Origin: an uncultured Rhizobiaceae bacterium
Lineage (GTDB): Bacteria > Pseudomonadota > Alphaproteobacteria > UBA828
Length of the DNA: 38,957 nt
NCBI GenBank assembly: GCA_964413115.1
Contig: CAYPSQ010000006.1
Span: forward strand, 28,506 to 67,462
Reading direction: 5' to 3'
Positions 2,987 to 8,822 of the stretch are shown piece by piece. The position numbers were made by a program, and so were the translations under genes. The notes below the pieces were generated by a model, which was not told where the DNA came from, ran no database searches, and saw nothing but the letters and a program-made list of their open reading frames with translations. Position 1 is the stretch's first letter. The number at the start of each line of letters is the position of its first letter.

Positions 2987-3409
2987 ATTTGAACGACAAG
3001 AGATTAGTCGGAGGCGGATACGAGAGATTCCGAATGTCAGGGTTCATCAGAGACGTGAATGTCTAAACAAATTCATGATATTTTGCGTCAGTTTAGTGCA
3101 CGACAAGGTGAATGCATGTCTATGCGTCATAAAGGCGTAGAGGCGGTAGATGAATTTGTCAGACTGACAGTAAGTAGAAACATAGGACCGTGCCAGATCA
3201 CAATGATGCCATCGTGCCGACGGGCTTAAGGAGATAGCCTTCAACATAATGCAAATCATGGCATCTTTTAGAGTCTGACAGTCCCGTATTTTCACAAGCG
3301 CTGCGCATAACATTACGTTTTTTACTTAAGGTGGCGATGTTCTATGAAGATAAGCAAGGTAGAGAACCAAGTGTACCAAATTTCCGTCATACCGCTATCA
3401 TGTATAGAT

Positions 3410-3625
3410 TTCTGAATAGTAAAAACTTAAATATAAATAATATAGGGTGGTTTAAATACCAAAATACTAAATATTTATAATTATTATATTAAAATAAGTA
3501 ATATAATTAACGGACATATAATATTATTAATTAATAAATATTCTCTATAAGTAAAATTTATAACCCATTTTTCAAAATAATTATTTATTTTATATTTATA
3601 TAATAATTTTCCTCATTCTTTTGAA
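3410..3625. other. Extremely AT-rich non-coding tract
   Basis: Hand count gives 21 G+C in the 180 nt 3421-3600 (about 12% GC), against GC-rich flanking genes. Confidence 0.9.
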
Positions 3626-3632
3626 CATTTGG

Positions 3633-3670
3633 TTGCTTCTCTCTTTTCAAAGTGTGATAAGCGATATAAT
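3633..3670 (+). promoter_or_regulatory. Candidate sigma70 promoter of the tRNA
   Basis: TATAAT at 3665-3670, 21 nt upstream of the tRNA; no well-spaced consensus -35 (TTGCTT at 3633 is too far). Confidence 0.35.
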
Positions 3671-3691
3671 GGTTGACCTGATTGGGTCTGT

Positions 3692-4018
3692 CCGCGCGTG
3701 GTGGAATGGTATACACAACAGACTTGGTTCAAATTAGTTGCTTGAGTGCCCTATCGGAAACGATGGGAGTAGAACGCATCAAATTCGCGGAAACCTTAAC
3801 AGTTTTGGCTGATGGCAATCGCGAGCGAAGCCTACTAATAAGTTCTGGTAGGAACGTGTAGAGACTTGACGGTGCGCACCTACGGTCAAATTCTGGCTAT
3901 GGTGAAGGGAAAGTCCAGACCACAAAGCTCTGCAAGGAGTGGCGGCGAAAGTCGTAGCTTGGTATGAAAATCTGTCCTCCGTAAGGAGATGTCGGTTCAA
4001 GTCCGACCGCGCGGACCA
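3692..4018 (+). tRNA. trnL-UAA: tRNA-Leu(UAA) with intron; exon 1 3692-3725, exon 2 3967-4018, CCA encoded
   Basis: Acceptor stem CCGCGCG/CGCGCGG + A + CCA; D arm GTGGAATGGTATACAC; anticodon stem ACAGA/TCTGT with spliced loop CT-TAA-AA; long variable arm CTCC-GTAA-GGAG; T arm GTCGG-TTCAAGT-CCGAC. Confidence 0.95.
3726..3966 (+). ncRNA. Group I intron (241 nt, tRNA-type, probably IC3), no homing endonuclease ORF
   Basis: Follows exon U and ends in G. IGS GAGT 3744-3747 pairs with exon ACTT; P2 CCTATCG-GAAA-CGATGGG; P3 CGCATC 3775-3780 / GGTGCG 3871-3876; P AAATTCGCGGAAACC; Q GGCAATCGCGAGCGAAG; R GTGTAGAGACTTGACGG; S AAGGGAAAGTCCA; GAAA-capped hairpin in P9. Confidence 0.93.
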
Positions 4019-4026
4019 CCCCCAAT

Positions 4027-4098
4027 CTTTAAAGCTATTCCCACAATCGTAGAACATGAAAATCGAGATAATTCCAACTAAGCTTTAAAGGGTTTTTT
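4027..4098 (+). terminator. Possible terminator or processing stem downstream of the tRNA
   Basis: 10-bp inverted repeat CTTTAAAGCT (4027-4036) / AGCTTTAAAG (4081-4090) followed by GGTTTTTT; the loop is unusually long. Confidence 0.3.
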
Positions 4099-4102
4099 GA
4101 CT

Positions 4103-4525
4103 GCGTTCCACCATACCTCCTGAAACAATTATGAAATTCTCACCGCCAACGTGTTTGATAATGATTCAAGACGGGTCTCAGGCCGTATCACGACTTACTG
4201 GCTGTTCATCAATCCGCCCCTGGGTCGGATTGATGAACAAAAATTAGGTTCGGAATTCTGCCGCAAGGCGTTCATTGGTGACATGATGATTTCACCCGCT
4301 GGCCGCACAAAGGAACCAGCGAGACCCTAGGGTTCATAAAGATATTAATCGATGTCGATGGCGAGTAAATCCTTGGTGCTTCCATTGTAGGGATCGGTGG
4401 CGATGAAAATATCTGCTCGCTCCTTAACGTCATCAATTCAGAAGCGCAGTACCCATTGATTCCGCGCGCTATGCATGACCGAATTGATCCAGACGCTGTT
4501 GGGCGACCAGCAATCGTTCATTTAA
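4103..4525 (+). pseudogene. C-terminal remnant of an FAD-dependent pyridine nucleotide-disulfide oxidoreductase (mercuric reductase/lipoamide dehydrogenase-like)
   Basis: Manual translation AFHHTS*NNYEILTANVFDNDSRRVSGRITTYWLFINPPLGRI / SETLGFIKILIDVDGE*ILGASIVGIGGDENICSLL…RAMH / TELIQTLLGD matches the family dimerisation domain, with stops, frameshifts and loss of the HPT motif. Confidence 0.8.
4203..4239. repeat. Perfect 14-bp inverted repeat with a 9-nt loop inside the pseudogene
   Basis: TGTTCATCAATCCG (4203-4216) and CGGATTGATGAACA (4226-4239). Confidence 0.9.
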
Positions 4526-4616
4526 CGAGCATCGCCTATACCAAAAATTTTAAAGCTTTGGTGGTGGCGGCGAGCTAATCTATTCATCATCTAAGTTTGA
4601 GAGGTGCCAAAATATA

Positions 4617-7718: not shown

Positions 7719-8822
7719 ATGAAGCATGCTTTATTCATGATGCCAATTCACGCGCGTGAGAAGGATTATCACACCGGGCTGATGGAAGATCGGGAAGCGA
7801 TCATTCTGGCCGATAAACTGGGCTACTCCGAAGCGTGGATCGGCGAACATTACGCTTCTGGGCCAGAGCAGATCACGTCGCCAATGATGTTCTTGGCGAG
7901 CTTAATTACCGAAACAACCAACATCAAGCTCTGCACTGGCGTGATTTGTCTGCCGCAATATCATCCTGGCCTGGTCGCCGGACAGGCTGCAATGTTCGAT
8001 CATCTCTCCAAGGGCCGCTTTATCATGGGTGTCGGGCCGGGTGGCCTGCCGCCGGACTTCGAATTGTTCGACACCATGGATGCTGAGCGCAACGAGATGA
8101 TGGCCGAATCTATCGATATAATCCACCAGATTTGGTCTGGCGAACCGCCCTGGGATATTAAGGGCAAACATTGGCACATCAAAATTCAAGATTGGGTGCA
8201 TGACGATATCGGCCTGGGTCATATGTTAAAGCCGTACCAGAAACCTTATCCACCGATAGGGATTTCGGCGATGAGCCCGTTCTCAAGCTCTATTCGCTAC
8301 GCTGCCCAGCAGGACTTTATCCCGCTTTCGGCTAATTTTATAGGCAATTGGTCGGTGAAATCGCACTGGCAGGTCTATGCCGAGGAACGTGAGAAAAACG
8401 GCCAAACGGTGGATCCTGGAATTTGGCGTGTGGCGCGCAACATCCACGTCGGTGAAACCGATGCCGAGGCGGAAGCATTCGTCAAAGAGGCCAACGGTAG
8501 CTGCGATTGGTATTTCAAATATCTCCACACTATTTTCGAGCGTGCGAAGATGAAAGGTGCTTTTGTGATCAACAAAGGCGACGATGGAGATGCTCTCACT
8601 CATGAAGATTTGCGCGACAACTACACTATTTATGGCAGCCCAAGTACGGTGGCTGAGAAAATCCTCGCCTTCCGCGATGAGATCGGCGATTTCGGCACTT
8701 TGGTTCAGACGGCGCAGGATTGGACCGACGCTGATGCCATGAAGCGTTCAATGAAACTACTTGCCGAAGAGGTCATGCCGGCGGTCAATTCGGCTATCGG
8801 CAGCAAGCAGGCAGCGGAGTAA
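7719..8822 (+). CDS. LLM class flavin-dependent oxidoreductase (luciferase-like monooxygenase) 1
   Basis: ADKLGYSEAWIGEH, FDHLSKGRFIMGVGPG, KPYQKPYPP and LLAEEVMP. Confidence 0.93.
   Translation: MKHALFMMPIHAREKDYHTGLMEDREAIILADKLGYSEAWIGEHYASGPEQITSPMMFLASLITETTNIKLCTGVICLPQYHPGLVAGQAAMFDHLSKGRFIMGVGPGGLPPDFELFDTMDAERNEMMAESIDIIHQIWSGEPPWDIKGKHWHIKIQDWVHDDIGLGHMLKPYQKPYPPIGISAMSPFSSSIRYAAQQDFIPLSANFIGNWSVKSHWQVYAEEREKNGQTVDPGIWRVARNIHVGETDAEAEAFVKEANGSCDWYFKYLHTIFERAKMKGAFVINKGDDGDALTHEDLRDNYTIYGSPSTVAEKILAFRDEIGDFGTLVQTAQDWTDADAMKRSMKLLAEEVMPAVNSAIGSKQAAE

What the first reader, a model, noticed from the sequence alone, without database searches (positions are those of the whole stretch)
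3692..4018. tRNA-Leu(UAA) split by a self-splicing group I intron in an apparently alphaproteobacterial genome
Seen: two tRNA halves that form a cloverleaf only if 3726-3966 is removed, restoring the loop CU-UAA-AA. The insert has P1/IGS, P2, P3, P4, P7 and P9 pairings, P/Q/R/S motifs and a terminal G. Knowledge: insertion between U34 and A35 of tRNA-Leu(UAA) is the classic cyanobacterial and plastid trnL site, whereas the best-known alphaproteobacterial tRNA intron is in tRNA-Arg(CCU). Inference: this is a rare or laterally acquired ribozyme that default tRNA scans would probably miss. TTA codons occur in neighbouring genes (e.g. GCT TTA TTC near 7728), so splicing would be essential if this is the only UAA tRNA.
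Basis: partly seen in the sequence, partly recalled or inferred. Interest (0 to 1): 0.8.

Follow-up and report, generated by a model that had tools for sequence, protein, structure and literature searches.

The report
Self-splicing intron in leucine tRNA gene
A leucine tRNA gene of a marine alphaproteobacterium is split by a small self-splicing-type RNA intron, a real but already known kind of element that standard gene finders miss, and here the whole gene looks imported.

Summary
Window 3692-4018 is a tRNA-Leu(UAA) gene split after U34 by a 241-nt insert (3726-3966). ARAGORN finds it only when introns are allowed.

The insert is a group I intron of the bacterial tRNA type (IC3; 'Leu.3Ug' of Williams 2020).
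- Rfam's model gives no hit on this copy, but it hits 7 of 8 homologues.
- A model built from 53 other introns, without this one, scores it at 138 bits.
- The core helices show strong covariation across 54 introns.
- One RNA-library contig joins the intron's last G to its sixth base. That fits an excised, circularised intron.

The element is not rare. The same intron at the same site occurs in 12 of 150 sampled families of this class. It also occurs in many phyla, and this scan has reported it before on other DNA.

It is sporadic locally: 3 of 44 family genomes carry it. Four same-genus genomes have an unsplit, very different tRNA-Leu at the same locus. The whole gene therefore looks imported.

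Verdict: new member of a known kind, low interest.

The parts
3692..3725 (+). 5' exon of tRNA-Leu(UAA): acceptor 5' strand, D arm, anticodon stem 5' strand, then C32 U33 U34
   Evidence: ARAGORN with introns allowed. The last four bases, ACUU, pair with the internal guide sequence.
3726..3966 (+). 241-nt ORF-less group I intron (IC3 type, class Leu.3Ug), ending in omega-G at 3966
   Evidence: It matches the consensus at 85 of the 88 columns that are at least 90% conserved among 53 other introns. Two of the three departures are the two sides of one P4 pair, G-C changed to C-G at 3788 and 3821. The overlapping ORF 3779-4057(-) has no Pfam match.
3967..4018 (+). 3' exon: A35 A36 A37 A38, anticodon stem 3' strand, long variable arm, T arm, acceptor 3' strand, discriminator A, encoded CCA
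3744..3747 (+). Internal guide sequence GAGU (intron bases 19-22). It forms P1 with exon bases 3722-3725, including the U-1.G wobble pair 3725:3744.
   Evidence: The U.G pair is present in 54 of 54 aligned introns.
3749..3767 (+). P2 hairpin with a GAAA tetraloop
   Evidence: all 7 pairs show changes on both sides; 73% of cells are paired on the MAFFT alignment.
3775..3876 (+). P3 (3775-3780 with 3871-3876), enclosing P4 (3784-3790 with 3819-3825), P5 (3794-3815) and P6/P6a (3826-3856)
   Evidence: P3 is paired in 100% of cells and 4 of its 6 pairs change on both sides. P4 is 97% paired, P5 and P6 100%, P6a 93%.
3861..3916 (+). P7 pseudoknot (3861 and 3863-3867 with 3911-3916, A3862 bulged). 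This is the guanosine-binding helix. It encloses P3' and P8 (3879-3902).
   Evidence: P7 is paired in 100% of cells. Its end pair occurs as AU 31, UA 10, GC 8, CG 5. The proximal part of P8 is 100% paired.
3919..3963 (+). P9 domain: closing stem 3919-3922 with 3960-3963, a hairpin with a GCAA loop (3927-3940), and a hairpin with a GAAA loop (3942-3955)
   Evidence: All pairs are standard in this copy. The GAAA hairpin is 93% paired across the alignment. The other two helices are badly aligned by MAFFT (68% and 44%), so they are unsupported beyond this copy and its near relatives.
3642..3691 (+). Conserved 5' flank with TATAAT at 3665-3670; probable promoter and short leader of the tRNA gene
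   Evidence: The flank is conserved with the G014 homologue from about 3642. RNA-library contigs begin at 3678 and 3685. The promoter scan did not call it, so this is an inference.
2990..3641 (.). AT-rich spacer (GC 0.38 over 3001-4000, against 0.52-0.62 elsewhere). It has no counterpart in same-genus genomes and is part of the 1.6-kb replacement segment between the cinA-like gene and the SDR gene.
   Evidence: ORF 3047-3313(-) has no Pfam match.
3731..3966 (+). The 236 nt that make up the apparent circular form of the excised intron (3966 joined to 3731)
   Evidence: run X16. Record 6 reads 3940-3966 followed directly by 3731-3760. Record 5 covers 3731-3969.

Best explanation
Window 3692-4018 is the only tRNA-Leu(UAA) gene detected in this marine alphaproteobacterium. 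It is interrupted between U34 and A35 by a 241-nt ORF-less group I ribozyme intron of the bacterial tRNA class (IC3, 'Leu.3Ug').

Proposed mechanism:
1. The gene is transcribed as a precursor of about 340 nt, from just downstream of TATAAT (3665-3670).
2. The intron folds. P1 forms between exon ACUU and the guide GAGU, with the U.G wobble at the splice site. The core comprises P3-P8 with the P7 pseudoknot. GAAA tetraloops sit on P2 and P9.
3. Free guanosine bound in P7 attacks after U3725. Omega-G (3966) then takes the same site, and the freed 3'-OH of the 5' exon attacks after G3966. This ligates the exons into a mature tRNA that reads UUA and UUG.
4. The excised intron then circularises. Omega-G attacks after intron base 5, where GUUC can pair with the same guide sequence.

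What is shown here: the gene structure, membership of the intron family, covariation of the core helices, presence in RNA libraries, and one circle-junction contig.

What is inferred: the chemistry (from established knowledge of group I introns, recalled), the promoter, and that splicing is essential.

Origin: the whole gene, with its promoter and intron, sits in a 1.6-kb segment. In the closest relative the same interval is a 6.3-kb stretch holding the genus's own unsplit tRNA-Leu(UAA) and ordinary genes. I read this as a lateral replacement from another alphaproteobacterium. My odds for that part are about 0.6.
For: Gene structure
- The split cloverleaf is found only with introns allowed, at the stated coordinates.

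Family membership
- Model R1 was built from 53 other Leu(UAA) introns without this one. It gives 138.3 bits, E 2e-34, over all 153 positions with no non-standard pair. It is the single hit in the genome.
- Rfam RF00028 hits 7 of 8 homologous loci. Two are above the cut-off, including the 79%-identical L002 at 52.2 bits.

Structure
- On a MAFFT alignment of 54 introns, 86.4% of cells are paired, against 34-48% when the partners are slid.
- 41 of 59 pairs show changes on both sides, and 0 of 500 shuffles reach any observed measure.
- P3, P5, P6, P7 and proximal P8 are 100% paired, and U.G at the splice site is present in 54 of 54.
- This copy keeps 85 of 88 highly conserved columns. Two of its three departures form a compensatory P4 pair.

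RNA
- Contigs from four metatranscriptome runs of four studies are confined to 3678/3685-4016/4054. Two of them have 0 to 1 mismatch.
- In one run a 57-nt contig joins 3966 to 3731, and a 239-nt contig spans 3731-3969.

Need for the tRNA
- 44 TTA codons occur in 20 of 28 ORFs.
- No other tRNA-Leu(UAA) and no remnant of the genus-type gene is in the assembly.

Origin
- Four same-genus genomes carry an unsplit tRNA-Leu(UAA) right after the cinA-like gene.
- Those four genes are 92-100% identical to each other but only 68-72% identical to this one.
- The flanking CinA-like protein is 92% and the SDR 90% identical to those of G004.
- The intron groups with G014's (SH-aLRT 99) inside an all-alphaproteobacterial clade of 9 rows (97). 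It lies far from the cyanobacterial clade.
Against: - Rfam's curated group I model gives no hit on this copy, even at E up to 10 on a 371-nt slice. I did not work out why.
- Thermodynamic folding alone gives nothing: z-score -0.64, and the long-range helices are not predicted.
- No RNA contig with this organism's own ligated exons was seen. The one ligated-exon contig has a relative's variable arm and a foreign 5' flank, so it may come from an intronless gene.
- The circle junction rests on a single 57-nt contig of depth 4 in one run, with 27 letters on its shorter side. The tool's own joint table did not list it.
- RNA libraries can hold DNA, and contigs cannot show strand, ends or level.
- In this copy the tetraloop-receptor-like motif in P8 reads CCUACG where its closest relative has CCUAAG.
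- The assembly holds only 29 tRNA genes, so a second tRNA-Leu(UAA) on unassembled DNA is not excluded.
- For the origin: G014, of the same family, has a homologous intron and 5' flank at the same cinA-linked locus. That is also compatible with old vertical descent.
Confidence: 0.85

Rival explanations
1. The intron-bearing gene is old and vertically inherited at the cinA locus in this family. The other members of the genus replaced it or lost the intron, so G000 acquired nothing laterally.
For: G014 belongs to another genus of the same family. It has a 79%-identical intron, a conserved 50-nt 5' flank and the same cinA-tRNA order. The two introns are sisters in the tree, with SH-aLRT 99.
Against: - 16 of the 18 cinA-linked tRNA-Leu(UAA) genes in the family are unsplit.
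- The four same-genus genes are 92-100% identical to one another and 68-72% identical to G000's. They are 68-71% identical to G014's.
- G000's flanking genes are 90-92% identical in protein to those of G004.
- The variable arm, T arm and acceptor stem differ between G000 and G014.
- A third family member, G015, has its intron elsewhere in the tree and not next to cinA.
Confidence: 0.25
2. The insert is a decayed, non-splicing relic and the gene is a pseudogene. UUA is read by a tRNA that was not assembled.
For: There is no Rfam hit. No ligated-exon RNA of this organism was seen. The tRNA set is incomplete, with 29 genes.
Against: - 85 of 88 conserved columns are kept, and a P4 pair is changed on both sides so that it still pairs.
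- All 28 modelled pairs are standard.
- U-1, omega-G and the guide sequence are intact.
- A circle junction at omega-G occurs in an RNA library.
- The cloverleaf, discriminator A and CCA are intact.
Confidence: 0.06
3. The segment 2987-4616 is an assembly chimera of a metagenome bin and does not belong to this organism.
For: The genome is a 243-contig assembly with 3.9% contamination. The segment has a deviant GC content and no counterpart in the genus.
Against: - Both flanks on the same 68-kb contig are collinear with G004.
- At least half of the sampled words of 3500-4300 are held by 14 DNA runs of 7 studies.
Confidence: 0.03

Closest known systems
Class 'Leu.3Ug' of bacterial tRNA group I introns (Williams 2020, bioRxiv 10.1101/2020.01.27.920355; whole text read, Table 1 is an image and was not seen)
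   Same: Same host tRNA, same site (CUU/intron/AAAA), U-1 and omega-G, IC3 core, ORF-less, about 200-330 nt. This copy scores 138 bits on a model built from 53 members.
   Different: Nothing in kind. It is one more member, in an unnamed marine alphaproteobacterial genus where the other members searched lack it.
Cyanobacterial and plastid tRNA-Leu(UAA) intron (Anabaena/Nostoc type; original papers recalled, not read here)
   Same: Same insertion site and the same core helices. The cyanobacterial members align throughout the core.
   Different: The five cyanobacterial rows form their own clade on a branch of 0.79 changes per column (SH-aLRT 100). The window's intron lies in an all-alphaproteobacterial clade. 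The cyanobacterial rows read GTGCAGAGACTC where this one reads GTGTAGAGACTT, and they have a different P9 region.
Azoarcus tRNA-Ile(CAU) and alphaproteobacterial tRNA-Arg(CCU) introns (Reinhold-Hurek and Shub 1992, Paquin et al. 1999; recalled, not read here)
   Same: Small IC3 introns in bacterial anticodon loops with the same conserved core motif. tRNA-Arg(CCU) introns from Bartonella, Phyllobacterium, Neorhizobium, Mesorhizobium and others were picked up by the same core pattern.
   Different: A different tRNA and a different position in the loop (after position 36 or 37 rather than after 34). In my recollection Azoarcus has a single P9 hairpin, whereas this intron has a three-way P9 domain.
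Intron-bearing tRNA-Leu(UAA) genes carried on mobile DNA: the copy beside aac(3)-IId on pCTX-M3-type plasmids, and the island-borne replacement copies noted earlier in this scan (e1-3196596, e1-745792, e1-102774)
   Same: A complete tRNA-Leu(UAA) gene with the same kind of intron travels as a unit. Here too the whole gene, and not only the intron, differs from the genus's own gene.
   Different: No integrase, repeat pair or orphaned half of the old tRNA gene was found here. The plasmid copy belongs to another branch of the family: it is 90% identical to the Nitrobacteraceae and Novosphingobium copies and only about 77% identical to the window over 120 nt.

Membership tests
Group I intron, bacterial tRNA anticodon-loop class Leu.3Ug (IC3) | Insert in the anticodon loop of tRNA-Leu(UAA) between U34 and A35; its removal restores a cloverleaf | tested here: met
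   ARAGORN with introns allowed, and ARAGORN on the exons joined in a script.
Group I intron, bacterial tRNA anticodon-loop class Leu.3Ug (IC3) | P1 formed by the 5' exon end and an internal guide sequence, with a U-1.G wobble at the 5' splice site | tested here: met
   ACUU pairs with GAGU, and 3725:3744 is the U.G pair. U.G is present in 54 of 54 aligned introns.
Group I intron, bacterial tRNA anticodon-loop class Leu.3Ug (IC3) | Terminal guanosine (omega-G) before the 3' splice site | tested here: met
   G at 3966. The last alignment column is G in 54 of 54.
Group I intron, bacterial tRNA anticodon-loop class Leu.3Ug (IC3) | Catalytic core P3-P4-P6 and P7-P3-P8 with the P3/P7 pseudoknot, kept by compensatory changes | tested here: met
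   P3, P5, P6, P7 and proximal P8 are 100% paired and P4 is 97% paired. 41 of 59 pairs change on both sides, 0 of 500 shuffles reach the observed values, and slid controls give 34-48% paired.
Group I intron, bacterial tRNA anticodon-loop class Leu.3Ug (IC3) | Match to a covariance model of the class that was built without the candidate | tested here: met
   R1, built from 53 introns: 138.3 bits, E 2e-34, model positions 1-153 of 153.
Rfam RF00028 Intron_gpI (an operational threshold, not a defining trait of the ribozyme) | Score at or above the gathering score of 50 bits | tested here: not met
   No hit at all on this copy. Homologues score L006 55.1, L002 52.2, L004 46.2, L003 40.2, L010 31.3, L011 30.6 and L014 29.3 bits, and L015 gives none. 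Williams 2020 states that the Rfam seed held no bacterial sequence and that a bacterial model found 20% more introns.
Group I intron (any) | Guanosine-dependent self-splicing that yields ligated exons | not testable with these tools
   Only indirect evidence is available. An RNA-library contig joins omega-G (3966) to intron base 6 (3731), as expected of an excised intron that circularised. It is one contig of depth 4 in one run.
Subgroup IC3 | Compact core without P2.1 or P5abc; GNRA tetraloops on P2 and P9 that dock in receptor-like motifs of P8 and P5 | tested here: inconclusive
   P2 and one P9 hairpin end in GAAA, and there are no extra domains. The receptor-like motifs are CCUUAAC/GAUGG in P5 and CCUACG/UAUGG in P8, both off the textbook form (reading). 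The definition of the subgroup is recalled. Williams 2020 reports that a database of introns files the Leu.3Ug class under IC3.

The most novel reading that the evidence does not exclude
The unit that moves is not the intron but a whole promoter-tRNA-intron cassette. Such cassettes replace resident tRNA-Leu(UAA) genes. The intron pays its way by breaking up, at the DNA level, the anticodon-loop sequence that integrating elements (and perhaps other agents that recognise this tRNA gene) use as a target. That would explain three things: intron-bearing tRNA-Leu genes turn up on islands, on more than a thousand resistance-plasmid records and here as a replacement; ORF-less introns persist without a homing enzyme; and the intron tree cuts across the orders of Alphaproteobacteria.
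Probability: 0.1. Interest if true: 0.6.

Novelty: new member of a known kind. Interest (0 to 1): 0.22.

Why it matters
Practical value:
- Default tRNA finders and Rfam both miss this gene. The genome would therefore be annotated as lacking the only tRNA that reads UUA.
- Rfam's group I model fails outright on a well-preserved bacterial member of the family.

Biological value is modest:
- It adds a marine alphaproteobacterial lineage to a class already catalogued in thousands of genomes.
- It shows a case where the whole tRNA gene, and not only the intron, differs from that of close kin.
- It gives a hint from environmental RNA, a circle junction at omega-G, that the ribozyme is active in nature.

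It opens no long-standing question.

Tried and rejected
- Rfam searches of the window at gathering score, of two slices at E up to 10, and of the whole genome found no group I hit on this copy. I did not find out why. I rejected this as evidence against the intron because close homologues do hit.
- Minimum-free-energy folding gave z = -0.64, so it offers no support either way.
I trimmed the alignment to the core and built that instead. P1, P2 and P9 are therefore not in the model.
- A search for att-like repeats around the 1.6-kb segment found only short, chance-level pairs.
- A search for a remnant of the genus-type tRNA-Leu in the window and in the assembly found nothing above chance. The matches were to the tRNA-Leu(CAA) genes.
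- I considered that the 6.1 kb following the native tRNA in G004 might be an integrated island. It holds a chemotaxis receptor, a formate/nitrite transporter, a flavoprotein oxidoreductase and a GGDEF fragment, and no integrase. I dropped the idea.
- The promoter and terminator scan called nothing at the tRNA gene.
- The phage collection gave only 3 weak matches to the intron core.
- RNA contigs did not cover the AT-rich spacer or the region downstream of about 4054, and none showed this organism's own ligated exons. Contigs cannot prove absence.
- tblastx is not installed, so that part returned nothing. I used tblastn with ORFs instead.
- Paper searches for this intron in alphaproteobacteria returned mostly organelle papers. 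'tmrB' with 'group I intron' returned 0 papers.
- My splice-site mapping left 17 of 129 loci without an ARAGORN intron call. It left 7 of 26 class loci unclassified.

Full report
**Observation**

ARAGORN with default settings finds no tRNA gene in the 38,957-base window. Rfam at gathering scores finds nothing at all. With introns allowed, ARAGORN reports tRNA-Leu(taa) at 3692-4018 with a 241-nt intron at tRNA position 35, i.e. 3726-3966. Joining the exons in a script gives an 86-nt type II tRNA. It has a 7-bp acceptor stem, the anticodon loop CUUAAAA, a long variable arm, a TTCAAGT T-loop, discriminator A and an encoded CCA. The insert follows U34 and ends in G.

**Is the insert a group I intron?**

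Rfam's RF00028 gives no hit on this copy in four tries:
- the window at gathering score;
- a 501-nt slice at E up to 10;
- a 371-nt slice at E up to 10;
- the whole genome.

I did not find the reason. Three independent lines nevertheless show that the insert is a group I intron.

1. Homologues do hit the Rfam model.
   - A DNA search of 41 related genomes found homologous inserts.
   - On these, RF00028 does hit 7 of 8 loci. Two are above the cut-off of 50 bits: L006 at 55.1 and L002 at 52.2. L002 is 79% identical to the window's pre-tRNA.

2. The structure covaries.
   - I aligned 54 tRNA-Leu(UAA) introns with MAFFT, without fitting them to any structure (A1).
   - I wrote down P1-P9 from the window's own sequence. 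All 59 pairs are standard pairs in this copy.
   - Across the alignment 86.4% of cells are paired, against 34-48% when the 3' partners are slid by 1-3 columns.
   - 41 of 59 pairs change on both sides, and none of 500 shuffles reaches any of the five measures.
   - P3, P5, P6, proximal P8 and the P7 pseudoknot are paired in 100% of cells. The end pair of P7 occurs as AU 31, UA 10, GC 8 and CG 5.
   - The U.G wobble at the 5' splice site is present in 54 of 54.
   - The closing stem of P9 and the GCAA hairpin are badly aligned (68% and 44% paired). They are not supported beyond this copy.

3. A model built without this copy finds it.
   - A covariance model of the core (R1: 153 positions, 28 pairs) was built from 53 introns without the window's copy.
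   - It scores the window at 138.3 bits, E 2e-34, end to end, with no non-standard pair.
   - It is the only hit in the window and in the assembly.

This copy keeps the consensus at 85 of the 88 columns that are at least 90% conserved among the other 53 introns. Two of the three departures are the two sides of one P4 pair, G-C changed to C-G. That is what selection on a working fold produces. Minimum-free-energy folding adds nothing (z = -0.64).

**RNA evidence**

- The stretch 3500-4300 is held by 14 marine or seawater metagenome runs of 7 studies (half of its words or more). It is held in part by 6 metatranscriptome runs.
- I laid four RNA runs from four studies, all kept as contigs. The contigs are confined to the precursor:
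  - 3685-4030 (346 nt, 0 mismatches);
  - 3685-4023 (1 mismatch);
  - 3678-3760;
  - 3940-4016;
  - 3759-4054.
- None reaches into the AT-rich spacer. TATAAT lies at 3665-3670, so a start near 3678 is plausible, though the promoter scan did not call it.
- In run X16 a 57-nt contig (depth 4) reads 3940-3966 followed directly by 3731-3760. A 239-nt contig covers 3731-3969, and its last three letters fit 3731-3733 equally well.
- This is the junction expected if the excised intron circularised by attack of omega-G after intron base 5.
- The bases before that site, GUUC, can pair with the same guide GAGU that holds the exon end ACUU. This is my reading. The circularisation chemistry is recalled textbook knowledge.
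- The evidence is thin: one contig, one run, 27 letters on its shorter side, and not listed in the tool's joint table.
- A contig with ligated exons was seen, but it carries a relative's variable arm and a foreign 5' flank. It may stem from an intronless gene.
- No ligated exons of this organism were seen.

**Organism**

- RpoB from the same assembly is 70-76% identical over its C-terminal two thirds to 8 named alphaproteobacterial genomes. It is 61-64% identical to 3 gamma- or betaproteobacteria.
- Two further genomes gave partial matches and two gave none.
- 'Alphaproteobacterial' therefore stands, with no close named relative among those tried.

**How common is it?**

[quoted passage not shown] 'Leu.3Ug' is the classical one, and a Leu.3Cg type was confined to Proteobacteria.
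- By my splice-site mapping, 62 of the 120 are tRNA-Leu(UAA) introns after U34.
  - 19 are from named Alphaproteobacteria, among them Hoeflea, Rhodobacter, Phenylobacterium, Bradyrhizobium, Sphingomonas and Novosphingobium.
  - 11 are from Cyanobacteria.
  - The rest come from Acidobacteriota, Beta- and Gammaproteobacteria, Bacteroidota and others.
- With R1, 24 of 150 other genomes of the class (one per family, at least 90% complete) have a hit. Of the 26 loci, 12 are Leu(UAA) after U34 and 7 could not be classified.
- In the family, 5 of 44 genomes have such an intron in some tRNA:
  - Leu in G000, G014 and G015;
  - Thr(GGU) in G007 and G014;
  - Lys(UUU) in G021.
- This scan has also reported the same kind several times on other DNA and judged it ordinary.

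**Origin**

- In 30 family loci centred on the cinA-like gene, 18 hold a tRNA-Leu(UAA) nearby. Sixteen are unsplit and 2 are split (G000 and G014).
- Of 7 same-genus loci, 4 have an unsplit gene about 60 nt after cinA. The other 3 show no tRNA in the stretch fetched.
- Those four genes are 92-100% identical to each other but only 68-72% identical to the window's mature tRNA. Its best match anywhere in my set is 78%, to a Parvularculaceae genome.
- In G004, the closest relative (CinA-like protein 92% identical), the order is: cinA, native tRNA, 6.1 kb of ordinary genes with no integrase, then the SDR gene (90% identical). From there the two genomes are collinear.
- In G000 the same interval is 1.6 kb. 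It holds an AT-rich spacer with no counterpart, the split gene, and about 600 nt more.
- No remnant of the native gene and no repeat pair was found.
- The intron is sister to G014's (SH-aLRT 99), inside a 9-row clade made only of alphaproteobacteria of several orders (97). It lies far from the cyanobacterial clade (quick tree, 212 columns).
- G000 and G014 share the 50-nt 5' flank, the D arm, the anticodon stem and the intron. They differ in the variable arm, the T arm and the acceptor stem.
- I read this as replacement of the resident gene by an imported promoter-tRNA-intron unit, with odds of about 0.6. Old vertical descent with replacement in the rest of the genus is the main rival.

**Is splicing needed?**

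- TTA makes up 44 of 897 leucine codons in 28 ORFs of the window and occurs in 20 of them.
- No other tRNA-Leu(UAA) is in the assembly. However, the assembly holds only 29 tRNA genes in 243 contigs.
- 'Essential' is therefore likely but not shown.

**Verdict**

'Rare' is wrong at the level of the class and right at the level of the genus. 'Laterally acquired' is supported for the whole gene. The element is a new member of a well-catalogued kind, and interest is low.

Noticed in passing
L200 (NC_004464.2, pCTX-M3) 1361-1659; 1263 plasmid records: A complete tRNA-Leu(UAA) gene with the same kind of group I intron sits beside the AAA-ATPase gene and aac(3)-IId on enterobacterial plasmids. The records are Escherichia 484, Klebsiella 355, Salmonella 114 and others, and 919 are typed conjugative. 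The pCTX-M3 copy scores 135.1 bits on R1. It is 90% identical over about 360 nt, 5' flank included, to copies in a Nitrobacteraceae and a Novosphingobium genome. The plasmid gene tables list no RNA genes, so I cannot say whether the original records annotate it. Earlier notes of this scan saw it too (e1-102774, e1-3196596).
   Followed up: partly
window 2990-3690: This is an AT-rich, ORF-poor spacer with many short AT palindromes. GC is 0.38 over 3001-4000, against 0.52-0.62 elsewhere, and it is much lower at 3330-3620. It lies between the cinA-like gene and the tRNA gene. It has no counterpart in same-genus genomes and no RNA-contig cover. Its origin and role are unknown.
   Followed up: partly
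L004, L014 (tRNA-Thr GGU); L006, L010 (tRNA-Lys UUU); L011 (tRNA-Lys CUU): Relatives of this genome carry homologous introns in other tRNA genes and at other loop positions. G014 has two, in Leu and in Thr. ARAGORN mislabels several of them as Glu, Ser or Phe. These settings appear to be among the 21 types that Williams 2020 counts, but I could not see its table.
   Followed up: partly
window 3726-3966; L015: Rfam RF00028 misses this well-preserved intron entirely, and also L015. It scores a 79%-identical relative above its cut-off. I saw no structural defect that would explain this.
   Followed up: partly
L167 (G004) versus window 2987-4616: The closest relative has about 6.1 kb between its tRNA-Leu and the SDR gene, holding a chemotaxis receptor, a formate/nitrite transporter, a flavoprotein oxidoreductase and a GGDEF fragment. 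None of this is present in G000's assembly, apart from one distant paralogue match of 33% identity on C26.
   Followed up: partly
window 4203-4239: A near-perfect 18-nt inverted repeat (94% complementary, 1-nt loop) lies about 190 nt downstream of the tRNA gene and is followed by an A-rich run. The tool did not call it a terminator.
   Followed up: no
window 9682-31136: This stretch is dense in paralogous metabolic genes: three enolase-superfamily (MR/MLE) genes, two hydantoinase A/B pairs, two luciferase-like monooxygenases and several SDRs.
   Followed up: no
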